DNA of 32,000 bases. It comes from Scytonema sp. NUACC26. Lineage in GTDB: Bacteria; Cyanobacteriota; Cyanobacteriia; Cyanobacteriales; Nostocaceae. The notes beneath the pieces are model-generated. The model was not told the DNA's origin and searched no databases. It saw only the letters and a program-made list of their open reading frames with translations. Location: NCBI RefSeq assembly GCF_045865695.1, contig NZ_BAACAP010000184.1, forward strand, positions 10,563 through 42,562, given 5' to 3'. The translations under genes were made by a program, and so were the position numbers. Within the stretch, counting starts at the first letter, position 1. Each line of letters opens with the position of its first letter. Below, piece after piece: positions 18,867 to 25,919 of the stretch.

Positions 18867-21572
18867 ATGCAGAAATCAAAGACTGTAGCGATCGCTGCTG
18901 TTGCAGGTATGGGAGGAGTTGGCAAAACCGAATTGGCGACGCAGTATGCACGAACACATGAAGCCGATTATTCTGGTGGTATTTGCTGGTTAAATGCGAG
19001 AGAATCTAATTTAGCAGCAAAAATCGTGCTATTTTACCAGCAATATATAGGTAAGGAAGTCCCAAAAGAGTTGGGTGGACAACTGCTGAATCCTCAAGAA
19101 CAAGCACAGTGGTGCTGGCAGCATTGGCAACCATCTGAGGGATTAGTCTTGGTAGTATTGGATGATGTCACCGATGTCAGCAGTTGCTTTCAGGTATTGC
19201 CCAAGGATAATCGTTTTCGGGTATTAATGACAACTCGCTTGCGAAATCTCAACCCCAATTTTGTTAAAGAAATCCCCTTGGATGTGCTGTCAAAAACAGA
19301 GGCTGTGGCATTACTCACAGCGAGTCTTGGTAAGAAGCGGTTACAAAAAGAACAGCAAACAGCTAAAGAGTTGTGTGCTTGGTTGGGATATCTGCCTTTG
19401 GGTTTGGAATTGGTGGGACAGTATTTGGCAGAAGATCCAGATTTGTCTTTGGCAGAGATGTTAGTTCGGCTAAAGACACAGCGATTGGAAGATGAAGCAC
19501 TGGAACGCCAACAGCCAACTTTGAGTGCAGCACAGCTAGGAGTTAAAGCTGCATTTGAATTAAGTTGGCGAGAACTCACGATGATGACACAGCGTGTCAG
19601 CCAATTATTGAGTTTGTTTGCGCCAGACGTGATTCCTTGGAAATTGGTAGAGTCTGCAAGTGAGTTACTGAATTGGGATTCGTCAAATGTGAACGAGGCG
19701 AAAAAGCAACTCTACAAGCGCTATCTCATTCAACAACTGGAAGGGAAAAACGGTTGCTATAAAATTCATCCTTTGATTCGGGAGTTCCTGCAAGGGAAAT
19801 TGACACAGAACTCTTGTTCACCGACTACATCGATTGCTGCTGATGGAGAAGAGTTGGAGGTAGAATTAAAACAAGCTTTTGCTACAGCGATGGGGGCTAT
19901 TGCGCGGGAAATCCCTGATTCTCCCACCCGTGAATTCATTGTATCGGTACAAGATGCGATTCCCCACCTTAAAGAAGTTGCCCAAAATTTTATTGATGCA
20001 GTCAGGGATGACGATTTACTTGGGGTTTTTACTGGGATAGGTTGGTTTTATTCTGGACAGGGTTTGTATGCGCTAGCAGAACCTTGGTTAAAGCAGTGTT
20101 TATCAGTAGTGCGAGACCGTTTGGGAAAAGAACATCCCCTTATCGCACTTAGCCTCAACAACTTGGCATTACTTTACTACTCTCAAGGAAGGTACGACCT
20201 AGCAGAACCCCTTTATCAGCAAGCATTGCAACTTACGCAACGCCTGTTGGGTCAGGAGCATCCTGATGTCGCCACTAGTCTCAACAACTTGGCATTACTG
20301 TACCATTCCCAAGGAAGGTACAACCTAGCTGAACCCCTTTATCAGCAAGCATTGGAACTGCGACAACACCTGTTAGGTCAGGAGCATCTTGATGTCGCCA
20401 CTAGCCTCAACAACTTGGCTGGGATCTACCATTCCCAAGGAAGGTACGACCTAGCTGAACCCCTTTACCAGCAAGCATTGGAACTGTGGCAACGCCTGTT
20501 GGGTCAGGAGCATCCTAATGTCGCCACTAGCCTCAACAACTTGGCAGAACTCTACTACTCTCAAGGAAAGTATGACCTAGCTGAACCCCTTTACCAGCAA
20601 GCATTGCAACTTACGCAACGCCTGTTAGGTCAGGAGCATCCTAATGTCGCCACTAGTCTCAACAACCTGGCAGTGCTATACAAATCCCTTGGAAGGTACG
20701 ACCAAGCTGAACAAATGTATCAGCAAGCATTGGAACTGAGACAACGCCTGTTAGGTCAGGAGCATCCTGATGTCGCTGCTAGTCTTAACAACTTGGCAGG
20801 ACTCTACCATTCCCAAGGAAGGTACGACCTAGCAGAACCTCTGTACCTAAAAGCTTTGCAACTGTGGCAACACCTGTTGGGACAGGAGCATCCTAATGTC
20901 GCCACTAGTCTCAACAACCTGGCAGCGCTATACATATCCCTTGGAAGGTACAACCAAGCTGAACAAATGTATCAGCAAGCTTTACAACTGTGGCAACACC
21001 TGTTGGGACAGGAGCATCCTGATATCGCACAAAGCCTCAATAACCTGGCAGGACTCTACTACTTCCAAGGAAAGTACGACCAAGCAGAATCTCTGTATCT
21101 AAAAGCTTTGCAACTGAGGCAGCGCCTGCTGGGACAGGAGCATCCTGATATCGCACAAAGCCTCAATAACCTGGCATTGCTCTACAAATCTCTTAGAAGC
21201 TACGACCTAGCAGAACCTCTGTATCAGCAAGCTTTGCGACTGAGGCAGCGCCTGCTGGGACAGGAGCATCCTGATATCGCACAAAGCCTCAATAACCTGG
21301 CATTACTCTACCACTCTCAAGGAAGGTACAGCGAAGCAGAACCTCTGTACCTAAAAGCTTTGCAACTGTGGCAACGCCTGTTGGGACAGGAGCATCCTGA
21401 TACCGCCACCAGTTTCAACAACCTGGCTGGACTCTATAAATCCCAAGGAAGGTACAGCGAAGCTGAACCTCTGTACCTAAAAGCTCTGGAAATTTTGGAA
21501 CAACAATTAGGTGTCCACCATCCTAACACAGTTACCTGCCGTGAAAATCTCGATCGCCTTCACTCCCTTTGA
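18867..21572 (+). CDS. NB-ARC (STAND) NTPase with a C-terminal TPR array
   Basis: Walker A GMGGVGKTELA, Walker B LVLVVLDDV, RVLMTTR, and GLPL-like GYLPLGLELV. Eleven 42-aa TPR units follow. The frame is open back to 18753, and the conserved pre-P-loop motif FVGRKRELSQLH lies upstream of the first ATG. Confidence 0.85.
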   Translation: MQKSKTVAIAAVAGMGGVGKTELATQYARTHEADYSGGICWLNARESNLAAKIVLFYQQYIGKEVPKELGGQLLNPQEQAQWCWQHWQPSEGLVLVVLDDVTDVSSCFQVLPKDNRFRVLMTTRLRNLNPNFVKEIPLDVLSKTEAVALLTASLGKKRLQKEQQTAKELCAWLGYLPLGLELVGQYLAEDPDLSLAEMLVRLKTQRLEDEALERQQPTLSAAQLGVKAAFELSWRELTMMTQRVSQLLSLFAPDVIPWKLVESASELLNWDSSNVNEAKKQLYKRYLIQQLEGKNGCYKIHPLIREFLQGKLTQNSCSPTTSIAADGEELEVELKQAFATAMGAIAREIPDSPTREFIVSVQDAIPHLKEVAQNFIDAVRDDDLLGVFTGIGWFYSGQGLYALAEPWLKQCLSVVRDRLGKEHPLIALSLNNLALLYYSQGRYDLAEPLYQQALQLTQRLLGQEHPDVATSLNNLALLYHSQGRYNLAEPLYQQALELRQHLLGQEHLDVATSLNNLAGIYHSQGRYDLAEPLYQQALELWQRLLGQEHPNVATSLNNLAELYYSQGKYDLAEPLYQQALQLTQRLLGQEHPNVATSLNNLAVLYKSLGRYDQAEQMYQQALELRQRLLGQEHPDVAASLNNLAGLYHSQGRYDLAEPLYLKALQLWQHLLGQEHPNVATSLNNLAALYISLGRYNQAEQMYQQALQLWQHLLGQEHPDIAQSLNNLAGLYYFQGKYDQAESLYLKALQLRQRLLGQEHPDIAQSLNNLALLYKSLRSYDLAEPLYQQALRLRQRLLGQEHPDIAQSLNNLALLYHSQGRYSEAEPLYLKALQLWQRLLGQEHPDTATSFNNLAGLYKSQGRYSEAEPLYLKALEILEQQLGVHHPNTVTCRENLDRLHSL
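20130..21569 (+). repeat. Tandem 126-bp coding repeats (11 full units plus a partial one) encoding TPR pairs
   Basis: The unit EHPxVATSLNNLAxLYxSQGRYxLAEPLYQQALxLxQRLLGQ repeats head to tail. High nucleotide identity is visible by eye. Confidence 0.9.
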
Positions 21573-21877
21573 GCAATGCCTTCCCTTAAGCCGCTCTTTT
21601 GGCAAAATTCCTGCTCGTCCTGGTATCTATGCCATCAGACACAAAACCGATGGGTTGCAATACAATCGGTAAAACTAAGAATCTGCGGAGTCGCTTCATT
21701 GGTGGGCACAAAGCTTTTTTGTGGGCGTGGCTCGACAAATATAGTGATGAAGAAGTTCGTATTGCTGTGCAACCAATTTCTTACTGGGAAAACCCTGCGC
21801 TATTATTGGAACTGGAAGCTATCATCCTGAGAAGCTCCGAACCTCCTTATAACGTTCAAATCCCAAGCGAACAGTAA
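21571..21877 (+). pseudogene. GIY-YIG nuclease-like small gene with a 1-nt frameshift
   Basis: One frame reads ...ARPGIYAIRHKTDGLQY and then stops. The next frame continues IGKTKNLRSRFIGGHKAF...LELEAIIL...PPYN. The GIY...YIG motif is split by an extra base at about 21663. Confidence 0.6.
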
Positions 21878-21881
21878 AGCT

Positions 21882-22113
21882 ATGCAAGCAAAACTTTTGG
21901 AACAACTTTCCTCTGCTGATGCCGAAGTTATCTTGGAACGCTTACCTGAACGAATTCGAGCTGCCCTAATTGCTCGTGCTACTGAAATTGAGTATCCAGT
22001 TGAAGCAGTTATTGAGATGGCGTTCACGTAGTGTCTCTGAAAGAGAATCGCTAGCTTCCTCGATACGGAGGCATGATAGTTTTGCAGATTGTAAACCAGG
22101 ACGCGGACAATAA
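21882..22113 (+). pseudogene. Decayed small ORF (MQAKLLEQLSSADAEVILERLPERIRAALIARATEIEYPVEAVIEMA...)
   Basis: The 49-codon ORF stops at 22031. Downstream, recognisable continuations IASFLDTEA and FADCKPGRGQ* appear after stop codons and in a shifted frame. Confidence 0.4.
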
Positions 22114-22156: not shown

Positions 22157-22486
22157 TCATCTTTTAGCTTGTCCAATCCTCTCAAGCCTGTCATTGGCGT
22201 CTTTGGCAAGCTGAACACAGCGAATGCTAGCAGCCATTCCTGCAGCAGCAGTAACCGCACCCTCATTTGCCTTTTCTGTCAGCAACAGTCCTGCACCTGT
22301 TAGACTGATGAAGCTAGACATAGCGGTGGCGACTAGGGCAAGATTGAAACTGAGGCGTGCTTGGCGCAGACGTTCTTGGGCGATATTCATTTCTACTGCT
22401 GAGTTGGTGTTAGGTTGTTTGGGATTTTTCTGTAAATCTACGGTATGCTGGGAGCGATCGGCAAAACGAGGTTCTTGATTGTTCAT
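22157..22486 (-). CDS. Small 2-TM protein, probably the cyanobacterial TRADD-N-associated 2-TM family (paralog 1)
   Basis: AQERLRQARLSFNLALVATAMSSFISLTGAGLLLT...GAVTAAAGMAASIRCVQLAKDANDRLERI shows two hydrophobic helices and a conserved C-terminal helix. A paralog lies at 24243..24527. Confidence 0.6.
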   Translation of the reverse strand: MNNQEPRFADRSQHTVDLQKNPKQPNTNSAVEMNIAQERLRQARLSFNLALVATAMSSFISLTGAGLLLTEKANEGAVTAAAGMAASIRCVQLAKDANDRLERIGQAKR

Positions 22487-22674
22487 TAAGTATCTCCTTG
22501 TTTATCAATTTTTTAGTAGAGCTTTGAGTTCTAGCTGTCCTCATCACCTCTACACTCAATATCTCAACTGCGTTTGAGAGATTTTGCTGAAACTTAGACT
22601 GACATAACCTAACATTGCCTTACATATCTTTTATCCTTAGCTAAACTAGCTTTTAGGACATTACAGTTAAGCAG

Positions 22675-23648
22675 ATGCAACCATTCCCGCAGGACTTTCT
22701 GACTCAGTTGGCTAGTGAGTATGAGCTTTCTCCAGAACAAAGGAATTAGAACTAGATAGCGAAGCCGTTTTGAAGTCGATTGAAGCCCAGCACGGGTTGC
22801 TAGTAGCACGGGCGACAGGTATTTATTCCTTTTCTCACCTAACATTTCATGAGTATTTCGCTGCTAGAGAAATCGTTGCCAATTCTGCTTGGGAAAGATT
22901 GGCAGAGCATATTACTGAGAAGCGGTGGCGAGAGGTCTTTCTGTTAACCACAGGGATGATGCGAAAGGCTGATGAATTGATGCAGTTGATGAAGCAGAAG
23001 GTTGATAGTCTGGTCCCTATAGATAATAAATTGCAACAGTTTTTAGAATGGGTAAATCAAAAAGCCAATTCTCTCAATACTCCCAACAAATTGGCAGCAG
23101 TGAGAGCTTCCTATTTTGAAATTTATGGGAAAGGTAGTTTTCTTGTATCTGTTAATAAAGATAAAGTTGTTGTTGTTTCTATTTTGTTTGCCTCGATAGA
23201 AAAAGTCAAAAATTATCAAGAACTTTTTTTACCAGTAGAAATGTTGATAGATAATTTAATATTTTACTTAATTGATAGTCCTCTTGATGTTGGGTCTAGC
23301 TACAAAGTTCTCTCTATTGTTTTGCAAAATATTAAGTCAAATAATAAGCTTCAACAACTAATTCAAGAATTTCAAAATAAATTACCTGGTTTAGATGAAA
23401 ACGATGAAGTACTTCAAGATTGGGTAATATATGACAAATGGGTTTGGACTGAACAACTCAGAGCCGTAATGATTGAGCATCGCAACATTGGTCACGATTG
23501 GCAATTTACTGACACTCAAAAAGAACTATTACAGCAGTACTACGATGCTAATAAACTACTAGTTGATTGCCTCAACAGCGATTGTTACGTCAGCCGCGAA
23601 GTAAGACAGGAAATTGAGGATACATTGTTATTGCCAGCACGAAGATGA
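22675..23648 (+). pseudogene. Remnant of an HTH-NACHT gene: about 22 N-terminal codons joined out of frame to the C-terminal ~300 codons
   Basis: MQPFPQDFLTQLASEYELSPEQ is followed by a stop. A different frame then reads LDSEAVLKSIEAQHGLLVARATGIYSFSHLTFHEYFAAREIV, a post-NACHT helical region. The P-loop region is absent. Confidence 0.6.
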
Positions 23649-23699
23649 ATTGAAAAGCAAGAGCTAAGAACGTTTTGACGCTTCTGCAGCCAACTTGCT

Positions 23700-23948
23700 T
23701 TACTGGGCTAGATGTACTTTAAAGGGTTTGCGCGGAACTCCTTTAAACTCGTCCTTACCTAAAGGATCTGTAGAAACTCGAATGCTATGCTCGTCTTCTT
23801 TCACAAAATTAACAGGTGCTGGACTATGTAATGCTCCAGACTCGAGTTCAGCCAATTCCTTTCGTAAAGCCTCTATCTTAGCAGGGGAAACGTGCGCTGC
23901 CTCCGCATCCTCAATCATTTTTTTTAGCTGTGCGATCGTAACACGCAT
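23700..23948 (-). CDS. Hypothetical small protein (82 aa)
   Basis: ATG at 23948, reading MRVTIAQLKKMIEDAEAAHVSPAKIEALRKELAELESG.... The helical N-terminus looks coding. No family could be assigned. Confidence 0.45.
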   Translation of the reverse strand: MRVTIAQLKKMIEDAEAAHVSPAKIEALRKELAELESGALHSPAPVNFVKEDEHSIRVSTDPLGKDEFKGVPRKPFKVHLAQ

Positions 23949-24242
23949 TTTTGCCCTCCATAAATTAAGTCGTAACGCACTCCAATTATCTATTTCACCA
24001 AATTTGGCGGCATTCCTCAGAGTCCATACTTTAAGCATGGGTGGGGTAGTGACCTTGCCTACAATTACAATCAAAGTGCTACAAGTGCGTTGTCCACTTA
24101 TACCATTTCACTTTAATCGCGATACATATAAACTCTGTAAAGACGCGATGTTTGAAGCGTCTCTACATTATCCATTTGTATCATCTTTTCGTAAAGGGTA
24201 TTCGGGTGCGGTAAAGTGCATTTTTGACCCAAAGAGCGCACC

Positions 24243-24527
24243 TTAAGTCGTCTCACTTTTACCTTGCCCAATCCTATCAAGTCTGTCATTAGCATCTTTG
24301 GCTAACTGTACGCAGCGCACGCAGGCAACCATTCCACTTGCCGCCGTCACCGCGCCTTCATTCGCTCTTAGAGTCAGTAACAGCGCAGCACCGACTAAGC
24401 TGATGAAAGTAGAGACAGCGGTGGCAACGAGTGCTAAGTTAAAACTAAGGCGTGCTTGGCGCAGACGTTCTTGGGCAACGCTTGCTTCTACTGAGTTGGA
24501 GCCAGGAAGTTGTGGTGAGTGTTGCAT
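24243..24527 (-). CDS. Small 2-TM protein, paralog 2 of 22157..22486
   Basis: AQERLRQARLSFNLALVATAVSTFISLVGAALLLT...GAVTAASGMVACVRCVQLAKDANDRLDRI. Its orientation relative to a NACHT gene is the same as for paralog 1. Confidence 0.6.
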   Translation of the reverse strand: MQHSPQLPGSNSVEASVAQERLRQARLSFNLALVATAVSTFISLVGAALLLTLRANEGAVTAASGMVACVRCVQLAKDANDRLDRIGQGKSETT

Positions 24528-24684
24528 GGTAGTTTTGGGACATGAAGTTTGTTACTACTAGCATCGCGCCCAATTCCTCAACTCCTGACTGCACAATGGT
24601 TTTCCTACAACCGTCTTTTGATTGCCCTATGCTTGACCTTTGATTGCGTAGATAATGTAATCTATAAACCGTTAGAAGCAAAGC

Positions 24685-25691
24685 ATGAGCAAGAAGAGAC
24701 AAACTGTCAAAGCAACTCCTACTGGATTAGAACGGGCTGAGAAAGCTTTGAAGAGATTGCATGGAACACAATTAAATCTTGCAGGTGCAATGACCGGTTT
24801 AGTCGGTCGCAGTACTGTCCAGAAATTCTTTAAAGGCGAGGAAATTCAAGTTGATAAGTTCCAAGAGATTTGCAAAGCACTGACACTAGAATCTCAATGG
24901 GAAGCGATCTCCGGGTTAGTGGATTTACCTGACTCAGTTGATTTACCAAACAAGCAGCCATCTGAGCCAGTTGAGGAGGTACGGGACAGCGGTGTTGACA
25001 TTAATGTCCTAGTACAGGAGGTGCGTGAAAAGATAAAACCTCATATTAAACAGCGTTGCGGTACAATGCGGGTGCTGGACATGACCCAACCAATTAAGCT
25101 GACTGGAAAACGCGGCATCTATACCAACGTCAACATTCTTGATAGAATTACCGGACGCACAAGGTTAGCGCTGGCGGAACTTTTGGAAAAATGTACTACA
25201 GCCGAAGAATTTGACCGTTTTGGACTCAACCGGATTGCAGAGAAGCGAGTACCGGGGCTACAAGCAGTAGAACAATATAGCAATCTTATGGTACTGGGTA
25301 AACCGGGAGCGGGAAAGACCACATTTATGAAATATCTGGCAATGCAATGGATTGAGGGTCAGTTTCAAACAGATCGAGTTCCTGGGTTTATCACCCTTAA
25401 GGATTTGGTTCTTTCGTACATATCGTGCTAAATTTTTAGGAAAATTTATAGTTCTGCTTTATTTGCAAGGCTTACAGACACTTCTAGTTTCAATTTTAGA
25501 AAAGAATACTGTTATGAAGGTAATAATAGCTGTAATACAATCCAGATAAGGCTTTTCAGCTAATTTCCCCATAAATATAGCACGTTAAGTACGCAAGAGC
25601 CCTAGTTGATTGCCTCAATAGCGATTGTTATGTCAGCCGCGAAGTGAGACAGGAGATTGAGGATACGTTACTATTACCAGTAAAAAGATGA
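24685..25691 (+). pseudogene. HTH-NACHT gene with a large internal deletion and a MITE at the junction
   Basis: N-terminal HTH-like region and Walker A (VLGKPGAGKTTFMKYLA) run up to FITLKD, where a stop follows inside the inserted element. After the element, 25602..25691 encodes LVDCLNSDCYVSREVRQEIEDTLLLPVKR*, matching the C-terminus of the 22675..23648 remnant. Confidence 0.65.
25409..25599. mobile_element. MITE-like 191-bp element with 22-bp imperfect terminal inverted repeats
   Basis: The left end ttctttcgtacatatcgtgcta matches the reverse complement of the right end, ctcttgcgtacttaacgtgcta, at 18 of 22 positions. The interior is AT-rich and non-coding. It sits exactly where NACHT homology breaks. 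Confidence 0.55.
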
Positions 25692-25919
25692 CCACTTACA
25701 TCAAATGCTGTTTTATGCTTTTTTGTGTCTATTTTTAAAAACGACACCTTTTTTCCCCTGTTATATTATGGTAAATTATAGATTACCAATTTGTGGATAA
25801 TACATACTTATAGTTAGCTCTTGCTGAGCAACTCATCAATCCTTATCTTGCTTTTTTCCGACTTTTTCAGCAAGCCCTACTTCTTTACGGTTCGTCTACG
25901 GAAGGTGCTGATACTGCAA

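What the first reader, a model, noticed from the sequence alone, without database searches (positions are those of the whole stretch)
22157..25691. Duplicated divergent modules (small 2-TM protein next to HTH-NACHT) where both NACHT genes are decayed but both membrane genes are intact
Two paralogous ORFs encoding small proteins with two TM helices lie at 22157..22486 and 24243..24527. They share AQERLRQARLSFNLALVATA...CVQLAKDANDRL. Each sits head-to-head with a NACHT-type gene.
- **NACHT copy 1** keeps about 22 N-terminal codons joined out of frame to the C-terminal ~300 codons.
- **NACHT copy 2** keeps the HTH and Walker A regions, then jumps to the last 29 codons.
- **Shared tail:** the two NACHT C-termini (23559..23648 and 25602..25691) are clearly homologous.

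From memory the small proteins resemble the cyanobacterial TRADD-N-associated 2-TM family, but they lack a TRADD-N domain. Survival of both membrane genes alongside independent loss of both NTPases is unexpected if the pair works only as a sensor-effector unit.
Basis: partly seen in the sequence, partly recalled or inferred. Interest (0 to 1): 0.6.

Follow-up and report, generated by a model that had tools for sequence, protein, structure and literature searches.

The report
Two decayed membrane-effector/NACHT defence cassettes
Two neighbouring copies of a widespread but untested cyanobacterial two-gene defence cassette (a small membrane protein gene back-to-back with a DNA-binding NACHT sensor gene) have both recently lost most of the sensor gene, and the small genes being intact is what chance predicts, not a sign of a separate function.

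Summary
Two paralogous small genes (22157..22486 and 24243..24527, minus strand, 75% aa identity) are full-length members of Pfam PF20712 (CyanoTRADDas_TM). Each lies head-to-head with an HTH-NACHT-NCH2 remnant.

- **Copy 2:** keeps codons 1 to about 241 and the last 30. A 195-bp MITE (25407..25601, 12 copies in this genome) replaces the roughly 1.6 kb between them.
- **Copy 1:** keeps codons about 471 to 803.
- **Pairing elsewhere:** 67 of 77 testable small genes face a gene with the same cI/Cro-like N-terminal HTH. Its body is exchangeable: TRADD-N plus pentapeptide in 39 of 54, NACHT in 13 of 54. Lacking TRADD-N is therefore normal.

The "unexpected survival" inference is not supported. The NACHT remnants have no nonsense codons in 540 codons and intact-gene-like dN/dS, so the deletions are recent. 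Under neutrality both small genes stay open with P of about 0.8. Broken partners beside open small genes recur in about 7 of 67 loci.

The likely mechanism is inferred: the sensor's HTH switches on the divergent 2-TM gene, whose product damages the membrane.

This is a new, decayed member of a known, uncharacterised kind.

The parts
22157..22486 (-). tm1: small 2-TM hairpin protein (109 aa), PF20712 CyanoTRADDas_TM. It has an AAGGAG Shine-Dalgarno 7 nt before the ATG.
   Evidence: One search lists the ORF. One search gives PF20712 E 7e-20 over positions 1-68 of 68. Searches show that all invariant family residues are kept. The Shine-Dalgarno is read from the sequence.
22487..22724 (.). Sequence between tm1 and the NACHT-1 remnant. 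It is unique in the genome and unlike the conserved divergent promoter of intact cassettes. It holds a 24-codon ORF (22676..22750) of unproven origin.
   Evidence: One search finds no second copy in the genome. In one search it does not align with other intergenic regions. Searches show the peptide is not significantly like anything.
22725..23648 (+). NACHT copy 1 remnant: residues about 471-803 of an ~800-aa HTH-NACHT-NCH2 protein. The HTH, P-loop NTPase and winged-helix parts are deleted. The open frame runs from the TTG at 22770 (292 codons).
   Evidence: One search gives the tblastn alignment to the 803-aa L049 protein. One search gives NCH2 E 6e-38. One search shows the 1-nt deletion at the junction and the TGA at 22722.
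23700..23948 (-). orf82: an 82-aa soluble protein of unknown function between the two cassettes. It is probably not a cassette component.
   Evidence: Searches show 94-95% nucleotide identity in two congeners. Searches place it beside NACHT genes there. One search finds it in only 5 of 201 family genomes. Searches give no Pfam or PADLOC hit.
24243..24527 (-). tm2: small 2-TM hairpin protein (94 aa), PF20712.
   Evidence: One search gives E 1.9e-18. One search gives the AlphaFold hairpin. One search gives dN/dS 0.17 against tm1.
24528..24684 (.). Divergent promoter/operator region of cassette 2 (157 bp), conserved in blocks with intact cassettes of other genera. It includes two TTGATTG repeats about 22 bp apart.
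   Evidence: One search gives the alignment with L049, L052, L047 and L045a. One search shows continuous 71-74% nucleotide identity across tm, intergenic region and HTH.
24685..25406 (+). NACHT copy 2, 5' part: a cI/Cro-like HTH (aa 1 to about 80), a linker and Walker A (GKPGAGKTT). Homology ends at ...FITLKD. The ORF runs on into the MITE and stops at 25431 (248 aa).
   Evidence: One search shows 67% identity to L049 residues 4-255. One search gives the NACHT P-loop hit. Searches give the HTH fold.
25407..25601 (.). 195-bp MITE with 24-bp terminal inverted repeats. It replaces about 1.6 kb (codons about 242-773) of NACHT copy 2.
   Evidence: One search aligns 8 copies with sharp ends. One search counts 12 copies of 150 bp or more in the genome. 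No target-site duplication is visible at this copy.
25602..25691 (+). Last 29 codons plus stop of NACHT copy 2 (LVDCLNSDCYVSREVRQEIEDTLLLPVKR*).
   Evidence: One search shows 88% nucleotide identity to 23559..23648. One search counts 11 nucleotide but only 2 amino-acid differences. One search shows 94% identity to the tail of the intact G120:C95 gene.

Best explanation
**What it is.** The locus holds two tandem copies of a cyanobacterial conflict-system cassette. Each cassette is a small 2-TM hairpin gene (PF20712) transcribed divergently from a large gene. That large gene has a constant N-terminal cI/Cro-type HTH, followed by an exchangeable switch/sensor body. Here the body is NACHT-NCH2.

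**What happened here.** Both large genes were recently destroyed by separate deletions.
- Copy 2 lost codons about 242-773, and a 195-bp MITE sits exactly at the junction.
- Copy 1 lost its first ~470 codons, and probably its native promoter region too.
- The stretch around them is decaying generally.
- The small genes are intact mainly because they are short and little time has passed.

**How an intact cassette most likely works (inferred).**
1. The NACHT or TRADD-N body senses an invader-derived or stress signal and oligomerises.
2. The HTH then acts on the shared 110-250-bp divergent promoter and switches on the 2-TM gene.
3. The 2-TM product oligomerises in the membrane, like a holin or other small pore-former.
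4. The infected cell is killed or arrested.

**Consequence here.** Without the sensor body the 2-TM genes are probably silent or merely repressed, so they are harmless and free to linger.
For: **Shown**
- Both small proteins match PF20712 and model as a hairpin.
- The head-to-head HTH partner is present in 29 of 30 and 67 of 77 loci.
- The partner body varies while the HTH and tm stay constant: TRADD-N plus pentapeptide 39 of 54, NACHT 13 of 54, plus AAA_35 and NB-ARC/TPR examples.
- The HTH model's best PDB matches are all DNA-binding cI/Cro/XRE regulators: HipB, C.BclI, lambda cI, ImmR, SinR and CapH.
- The intergenic region has conserved blocks.
- The MITE lies exactly at the copy 2 junction, and the copy 1 breakpoint is mapped.

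**Evidence that the deletions are recent**
- The remnants have no stops in 292 + 248 codons.
- Remnant dN/dS is 0.14-0.25, against 0.15-0.34 between intact genes.
- The two tails differ at 11 nucleotides but only 2 amino acids.
- Neutral expectation gives P of about 0.8 that both tm genes stay open.
- tm1 and tm2 carry equal numbers of unique changes: 7 vs 8 amino-acid and 13 vs 13 synonymous.

**Context**
- Truncated or frameshifted partners beside open tm genes recur: L126, L133, L149, L166, L135, L174 and L100.
- The neighbouring GIY-YIG gene and its companion are broken here but intact in a congener.
- Kaur et al. 2021 (PMC8195603) remark that an N-terminal HTH on TRADD-N proteins points to a transcriptional response.
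Against:
- No operator was identified. The conserved intergenic blocks may simply be promoters, and the promoter scan was uninformative.
- Foldseek E-values for the HTH are weak (0.15-1), although the top matches are uniformly cI/Cro-type.
- The strongly conserved cytoplasmic motifs of the 2-TM protein (ERLRQAR.SFN and QLAKDANDRLD) would also fit a direct protein-protein contact with the partner.
- No close relative (95% identity or more) was available to date the deletions directly.
- The truncated copy 2 ORF keeps an intact HTH. Its being stop-free could therefore reflect selection rather than youth. Using fragment 1 alone still gives P of about 0.7.
Confidence: 0.6

Rival explanations
1. 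The small 2-TM genes keep a selected function without their NACHT partners. One option is a minimal HTH-plus-2-TM unit like a toxin-antitoxin pair, with the truncated copy 2 HTH protein still regulating tm2. Another is control in trans by the genome's three intact HTH-NACHT paralogues. On this view their survival is not an accident.
For: - HTH-only or HTH-plus-P-loop stumps beside open tm genes recur in several genera: L126, L133, L149 and L166, and L007 and L026.
- L149 has the same HTH-plus-extreme-C-terminus layout as window copy 2.
- The tm of L126 shows no rise in dN/dS against its nearest relative with an intact partner (0.017/0.119).
- tm1 and tm2 keep every invariant family residue, and tm1 has a strong Shine-Dalgarno.
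- Congeners G020 and G080 carry tm genes with no HTH partner at all.
- Three intact HTH-NACHT-NCH2 paralogues exist in this genome.
Against: - The frequency of broken partners (about 10%) against broken tm genes (2 matches with an internal stop among the 150 listed) is about what the 4-8-fold difference in gene length predicts.
- Copy 1 has lost its HTH and its conserved promoter region entirely.
- The stumps end in junk residues, not conserved termini.
- The close-pair dN/dS test has very little power (12 differences).
- The chance expectation of about 0.8 makes no extra explanation necessary.
Confidence: 0.2
2. Coupling within the cassette is post-translational, not transcriptional. The 2-TM protein is made constitutively and acts as a membrane anchor or latent pore. 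The activated sensor protein then docks on it or opens it through its conserved cytoplasmic motifs. The HTH only autoregulates the locus.
For: - The 2-TM proteins have near-invariant cytoplasmic juxtamembrane motifs, ERLRQAR.SFN before TM1 and QLAKDANDRLD after TM2. This suggests a specific binding partner.
- A 615-aa protein with a C-terminal PF20712 domain exists (L094), which suggests a physical link to a larger soluble part.
- TRADD-N is described as a protein-protein adaptor (PMC7159879).
Against: - The only part of the partner that stays constant across the different body types is the HTH. A docking surface would be expected in the body or in an adaptor domain.
- The strict divergent arrangement with a short shared promoter is typical of regulator-target pairs.
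- Nothing was tested experimentally for either view.
Confidence: 0.15
3. The deletions are assembly artefacts of a draft genome (255 contigs, 6.6% contamination estimate), and the real genes are intact.
For: - The genome is a fragmented draft.
- A repeat (the MITE) lies at one junction, which is the kind of place where assemblers can err.
Against: - Both junctions lie inside one contig with unique flanks.
- The missing NACHT parts are not found elsewhere in the assembly. The other NACHT matches are distinct paralogues at 41-48% identity.
- The MITE has clean ends like its other copies.
- Copy 1's junction involves no repeat.
- Similar deletions occur in independent assemblies of other species.
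Confidence: 0.03

Closest known systems
Pfam PF20712 (CyanoTRADDas_TM) and the cyanobacterial TRADD-N conflict systems of Kaur, Iyer, Burroughs & Aravind (eLife 2020, PMC7159879; eLife 2021, PMC8195603)
   Same: - Both small proteins are full-length members, above the gathering score.
- The genomic partner has the same N-terminal HTH as the HTH-TRADD-N-pentapeptide proteins that give the family its name.
- The setting is the same: filamentous cyanobacteria and variable conflict islands.
   Different: - Here the partner body is NACHT-NCH2, a minority type (13 of 54), not TRADD-N.
- Both partners are deleted remnants.
- The papers' main text does not describe the 2-TM gene or the divergent HTH/2-TM cassette. 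Only the Pfam name records the association.
Bacterial NACHT / Avs-type STAND antiphage proteins (bNACHT, Avs; own knowledge of Kibby et al. 2023 and Gao et al. 2022)
   Same: A NACHT P-loop module with C-terminal helical domains (NCH2), paralogue-rich and fast-evolving, and located in defence islands.
   Different: - In those systems the effector is usually fused at the N-terminus (nuclease, SIR2, TIR, protease). Here the N-terminus is a DNA-binding HTH and the presumed effector is a separate, divergently transcribed gene.
- PADLOC finds only a weak candidate hit (PDC-S60) for the intact relative, and nothing for the 2-TM protein.
MalT-type STAND transcription activators (own knowledge)
   Same: The proposed logic is the same: a STAND NTPase whose signal-dependent oligomerisation drives an HTH to activate a target promoter.
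   Different: - MalT has a C-terminal LuxR-type HTH and a metabolic target.
- Here the HTH is N-terminal and cI/Cro-type, and the target would be a membrane-damaging effector.
- There is no sequence relationship beyond the P-loop fold, and nothing was tested functionally.
Class II holins / pinholins and SLATT 2-TM effectors (own knowledge; SLATT in PMC7159879)
   Same: Small proteins with two TM helices, both ends predicted cytoplasmic, a short connecting loop, a small-residue-rich second helix and a charged C-terminus. They are predicted to oligomerise and breach the membrane.
   Different: - No significant sequence match. tm2 hits the LydA holin model only at E 0.016, below its cut-off.
- There is no phage lysis context, and pore formation is untested.
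XRE/cI-type controllers of defence or toxin operons: C proteins of restriction-modification systems, CapH of CBASS, and the HipB and HigA antitoxins
   Same: These are the best structural matches of the partner's N-terminal domain. They are regulators that bind operators in the promoter of the toxic module they control.
   Different: Those are small stand-alone proteins. Here the HTH is fused to a large sensor/NTPase body.

Membership tests
PF20712 CyanoTRADDas_TM | Full-length match to the family HMM above the gathering score (24.3 bits) | tested here: met
   tm1 scores 71.3 bits and tm2 66.8 bits, both over profile positions 1-68 of 68.
PF20712 CyanoTRADDas_TM | Two transmembrane helices forming a hairpin | tested here: met
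   AlphaFold gives helices 10-51 and 55-91 with a 3-residue turn, pLDDT 76. The hydrophobic cores LSFNLALVATA..LLL and GAVTAA.GM.A are read from the alignment. Membrane insertion itself was not tested.
PF20712 CyanoTRADDas_TM | Genomic association with a TRADD-N or other conflict-system protein in cyanobacteria | tested here: met
   67 of 77 loci have a head-to-head HTH partner. The body is TRADD-N in 39 of 54 and NACHT in 13 of 54. The window has the NACHT type.
HTH-NACHT-NCH2 STAND NTPase | Complete NACHT NTPase domain (Walker A, Walker B, sensor and winged-helix parts) | tested here: not met
   copy 2 keeps only Walker A (NACHT profile positions 3-37 of 167), and copy 1 has no NTPase residues. 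Both are remnants of such genes, not functional members.
HTH-NACHT-NCH2 STAND NTPase | C-terminal NCH2 helical domain | tested here: met
   copy 1 matches NCH2 over positions 1-96 of 96, E 6e-38. Copy 2 keeps only the last 29 residues.
cI/Cro (XRE) DNA-binding HTH | Five-helix cI/Cro fold, and DNA binding | tested here: inconclusive
   The Pfam HTH_3 match is below its cut-off (E 0.003-0.013). The AlphaFold model has five helices at pLDDT 75, and its top PDB matches are all cI/Cro-type regulators, but at E 0.15-1. DNA binding cannot be tested with these tools.
MITE (miniature inverted-repeat transposable element) | Short, non-coding, with terminal inverted repeats, in multiple dispersed copies with sharp common ends | tested here: met
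   195 bp, 24-bp TIRs with 3 mismatches, 12 copies of 150 bp or more (9 at 85% identity or more) on different contigs with unrelated flanks.
MITE (miniature inverted-repeat transposable element) | Target-site duplication flanking the copy | tested here: not met
   there is no duplication at the window copy, as expected if a flank was deleted. Short duplications are visible at only some other copies (L083, L084).
Holin | Significant match to a holin family, or a phage lysis-cassette context | tested here: not met
   tm2 hits Phage_holin_3_3 only at E 0.016 (15.8 bits against a 28.4-bit cut-off). No lysis genes are adjacent. The resemblance is in architecture only.
Catalogued anti-phage defence system (PADLOC-DB 2.0) | Match of a component to a PADLOC model | tested here: not met
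   no hit for tm1, tm2 or the TRADD-N-type partner. The intact NACHT relative hits only the candidate model PDC-S60 over its NTPase.

The most novel reading that the evidence does not exclude
The constant [2-TM gene, divergent promoter, cI/Cro HTH] cassette is an autonomous, transcription-wired abortive-infection unit. Its sensor bodies (TRADD-N, NACHT, AAA_35, NB-ARC) are plug-in modules. After the sensor is lost, the HTH stump plus the 2-TM gene persist as a working repressor-toxin pair, or fall under the control of paralogous regulators. On this reading the window's two orphan membrane genes are still functional rather than debris.
Probability: 0.15. Interest if true: 0.6.

Novelty: new member of a known kind. 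Interest (0 to 1): 0.3.

Why it matters
This particular locus is mostly wreckage, so it matters little in itself. Following it up did clarify the anatomy of a common but experimentally untouched cyanobacterial cassette.

- **The anatomy.** A holin-sized 2-TM protein gene is almost always paired head-to-head with a gene that starts with the same cI/Cro-like HTH and continues into interchangeable STAND or TRADD-N sensor bodies.
- **Why that is interesting.** If the HTH really switches on the membrane effector, these would be NLR-like immune sensors whose output is transcription of a separate killer gene, not a fused enzymatic effector. That variant is not in current defence catalogues (no PADLOC hit).
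- **How it could be tested.** Intact cassettes such as that of Nostocales HT-58-2 can be moved into laboratory Nostoc/Anabaena or E. coli.
- **A second small point.** The locus is a clean example of a MITE sitting exactly at a 1.6-kb gene deletion.

Tried and rejected
1. **Copy 1's 24-codon ORF as an HTH N-terminus.** I tried pairwise alignment with shuffles, tblastn of the peptide against the whole genome and Pfam at E up to 10. None was significant. The pattern FL..LA....LS.E does resemble LuxR/ECF-like N-termini (L125), but HMMER also threads it into NACHT residues 448-470. This is left open.
2. **A second copy of 22487..22770 in the genome.** None exists.
3. **Faster evolution of tm2.** The tree gave it a 3.5-fold longer branch. 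Counting unique changes against five outgroups shows symmetry, 7 vs 8 amino-acid and 13 vs 13 synonymous, so this is rejected.
4. **Small TM genes next to the genome's three intact HTH-NACHT paralogues.** None was found.
5. **orf82 as a third cassette component.** It is rejected because it occurs in only 5 of 201 genomes.
6. **TRADD-N fused to the 2-TM domain.** It was not found. The 270-312-aa PF20712 proteins sit in a different, conserved context after liv-type ABC transporter genes, and the 615-aa fusion has no other Pfam domain.
7. **Operator search.** The promoter/terminator scan was uninformative, and only conserved blocks were seen by alignment.
9. **Literature search.** PF20712 and CyanoTRADDas return no paper. 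'TRADD-N associated' returns two versions of an Avs5 paper that do not concern this protein.
10. **Empty-site comparison.** Synteny with congener G020 ends exactly at the tm1 stop codon (22155), but the GIY-YIG cassette on the left is itself mobile. No clean empty site was obtained.

Full report
**1. What is in the sequence**

- The window holds two small minus-strand ORFs, tm1 (22157..22486, 109 aa) and tm2 (24243..24527, 94 aa).
- They are 75% identical over 91 residues, E 7e-49.
- Both match Pfam PF20712, the 'Cyanobacterial TRADD-N associated 2-Transmembrane domain', over the whole profile at E 7e-20 and 1.9e-18.
- These are the only two PF20712 matches in the 11.3-Mb assembly.
- AlphaFold, run on a 63-sequence alignment, models tm2 as a two-helix hairpin: helices 10-51 and 55-91, pLDDT 76.
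- The family alignment shows near-invariant motifs on the cytoplasmic side of both helices, ERLRQAR.SFN and QLAKDANDRLD. tm1 and tm2 keep every invariant residue.

**2. The NACHT remnants**

I compared both remnants with an intact 803-aa relative, L049/L096 from Nostocales cyanobacterium HT-58-2. Its domains are HTH, NACHT and NCH2.

*Copy 2*
- The ORF 24685..25431 aligns to residues 4-255, and 25596..25691 aligns to residues 773-803. Read at the DNA, homology stops at 25406, about residue 241.
- The stretch between them, 25407..25601, is a 195-bp element with 24-bp terminal inverted repeats.
- Eight other genomic copies align to it end to end with unrelated flanks. The assembly holds 12 copies of 150 bp or more.
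- So a MITE sits exactly where about 1.6 kb of the gene is missing, and this copy has no target-site duplication.
- That fits a deletion next to the element, or recombination between two copies.
I confirm it and add its copy number and exact ends.

*Copy 1*
- It keeps residues about 471-803 (22725..23648), with a full NCH2 domain at E 6e-38.
- At the left edge there is an in-frame TGA at 22722 and a 1-nt deletion relative to intact homologues.
- The 238 bp between that edge and tm1 is unique in the genome.
- It does not align with the conserved divergent promoter of intact cassettes.

*The shared tails*
- The two C-terminal tails are 88% identical in DNA and differ at only 2 of 29 residues.

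**3. What the pair is**

I examined the surroundings of PF20712 genes in other genomes.

- Among 30 top-scoring loci of the same GTDB family, 29 have a gene with a recognisable HTH N-terminus head-to-head with the small gene.
- In 80 named loci from the search for related loci there are 82 small genes. These loci are mostly Nostocales, with some Microcoleus, Leptolyngbya, Chamaesiphon and others.
- Of those 82, 77 have enough upstream DNA to judge, and 67 have the divergent HTH gene.

The first ~80 residues of the partner are the constant part. The rest is swapped:

| Partner body | Count among 54 full-length partners |
|---|---|
| TRADD-N (37 of these also have pentapeptide repeats) | 39 |
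| NACHT (10 of these also have NCH2) | 13 |

- AAA_35 and NB-ARC/TPR bodies also occur.
- The small proteins are therefore 'TRADD-N associated' by neighbourhood, not by fusion. The NACHT-type partner seen here is a regular minority form.
- The N-terminal domain folds as five helices (pLDDT 75).
- Its best PDB matches are uniformly cI/Cro/XRE DNA-binding domains: HipB, C.BclI, lambda cI, TP901-1 CI, ImmR, SinR and CapH. Foldseek probabilities reach 0.97, but E-values are only 0.15-1.
- Tandem arrays of the cassette recur: two in an uncultured cyanobacterium (L045) and three in Calothrix PCC 7103 (L167).
- tm1 and tm2 are weakly supported sisters (96/53). They sit inside a well-supported clade of five with HT-58-2, Desmonostoc vinosum and Scytonema sp. 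PMC 1070.18 (99/87). In the four members whose flanks were examined (window copy 2, HT-58-2, Desmonostoc, Scytonema PMC) the partner is NACHT-type.
- Their dS of about 1.1 shows the duplication is old.

**4. Is the survival of the small genes surprising?**

Long-term purifying selection on the small genes is clear: dN/dS is 0.17 between the paralogues and 0.09-0.35 against orthologues. That signal comes from the time when the partners were intact. The question is how long ago the partners died. Three observations say recently.

- The remnants contain no nonsense codon in 292 + 248 codons.
- Their dN/dS against intact relatives (0.14-0.25) cannot be told apart from intact-vs-intact pairs (0.15-0.34).
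- The two tails differ almost only at synonymous sites, dN 0.04 and dS 0.69.

I then counted the single-base changes that create stops.

- The two remnants offer 82 nonsense opportunities per substitution per site. The two small genes offer 19.
- Given that the remnants are still stop-free, and taking a flat prior on elapsed time, both small genes stay open with probability about 0.8. Using remnant 1 alone gives about 0.7.
- tm1 and tm2 also show symmetric, unremarkable numbers of lineage-specific changes.

The same state is seen elsewhere. Stumps or frameshifted partners lie beside open small genes in L126, L133, L149, L166, L135, L174 and L100. L149 keeps the HTH plus the last 26 residues, just like copy 2.

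- That is about 7 of 67 loci.
- Against this, 2 of the 150 listed PF20712 matches carry an internal stop.
- The ratio is roughly the 4-8-fold length ratio of the two genes.

The surrounding DNA is decaying too. I therefore read the intact small genes as expected leftovers. A retained function is not excluded, and the recurrence of HTH stumps keeps that rival alive at about 0.2.

**5. Mechanism (inferred)**

Three facts point to the HTH acting on the shared promoter.

- The HTH and the 2-TM gene are the constant parts of the cassette.
- They are always divergent across 110-250 bp.
- The intergenic region is conserved in blocks among NACHT-type cassettes of different genera.

The sensor body would gate this action, and the 2-TM protein would be the output. 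It resembles class II holins only in architecture, since its holin HMM hit is below the cut-off. Kaur et al. 2021 noted that N-terminal HTH domains on TRADD-N proteins suggest a transcriptional response. I found no description of the 2-TM gene in their text, and no paper that mentions the family by name. PADLOC has no model for it. A post-translational docking model is the main mechanistic rival.

**6. Context among congeners**

- The genus is Scytonema, judging by locus G120:C312, which is Scytonema sp. PMC 1070.18.
- Congeners show a mosaic picture.
  - G120:C312 has a tm gene (82% nucleotide identity to tm1) facing an open NACHT gene that runs off the contig end.
  - G120:C95 has an intact 741-aa HTH-NACHT-NCH2 gene whose tail is 94% identical to copy 2's tail. 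It lies next to an orf82 homologue (95% identical) and has no tm gene.
  - G020 and G080 have tm genes without an HTH partner.
- This is the recombining, fast-turnover behaviour expected of conflict islands.

**7. Limits**

- No very close relative was available to date the deletions.
- The operator, DNA binding and membrane activity are all untested.

**Verdict**

The central inference, that the survival is unexpected, is not supported. The locus is a decayed new member of a known, uncharacterised kind. Its main value is that it documents the constant HTH/2-TM cassette architecture and a MITE-marked gene deletion.

Noticed in passing
window 23700..23948 (-): An 82-aa soluble ORF (MRVTIAQLKKMIEDAEAAH...) is 94-95% identical in DNA to copies in two congeners, while its neighbours are only 70-87% identical. 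In all three genomes it lies next to a NACHT gene or fragment. It was found in only 5 of 201 family genomes and has no Pfam or PADLOC hit.
   Followed up: partly
window 25707..25882: A second short repeat lies just downstream of the NACHT-2 tail. It has many copies at about 79% identity in congener G020, but only one other copy in this genome.
   Followed up: partly
L045 9267..12020 (= L100; uncultured cyanobacterium B12_bin-0982): The NACHT partner of one of two tandem cassettes is split into 531-aa and 365-aa ORFs in the same reading frame by an in-frame stop codon.
   Followed up: no
L092 2004..2819, L093 2092..3030, L095 2227..3126: PF20712 also occurs inside 270-312-aa proteins that have an N-terminal hydrophobic segment. 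They are always encoded just after liv-type ABC transporter genes in several genera. This is a conserved, apparently housekeeping context, unlike the conflict cassettes.
   Followed up: partly
window 21511..22113, compared with L075 7817..8405 (G020): A GIY-YIG gene plus a small companion ORF form a ~600-bp unit. It is 87% identical to a copy at an unrelated place in congener G020, where both genes are intact. Here both are broken. Homology ends exactly at the tm1 stop codon, so the unit looks mobile.
   Followed up: partly
L033 7504..8445 (-) and L046 9711..10499 (-): A 262-313-aa protein starting MKYA..I..GG...AA.E..Y.DY, with CxxC pairs and no Pfam hit, lies next to PF20712 genes in two unrelated genomes. 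In G020 it takes the divergent position usually held by the HTH partner.
   Followed up: no
L173 (MAG labelled Actinomycetota, JBLNEP010000169.1): A complete 2-TM/HTH cassette turns up on a contig binned as Actinomycetota. Its tm groups with a Microcoleus sequence in the tree, with modest support. This is probably a binning error, or possibly a transfer.
   Followed up: no
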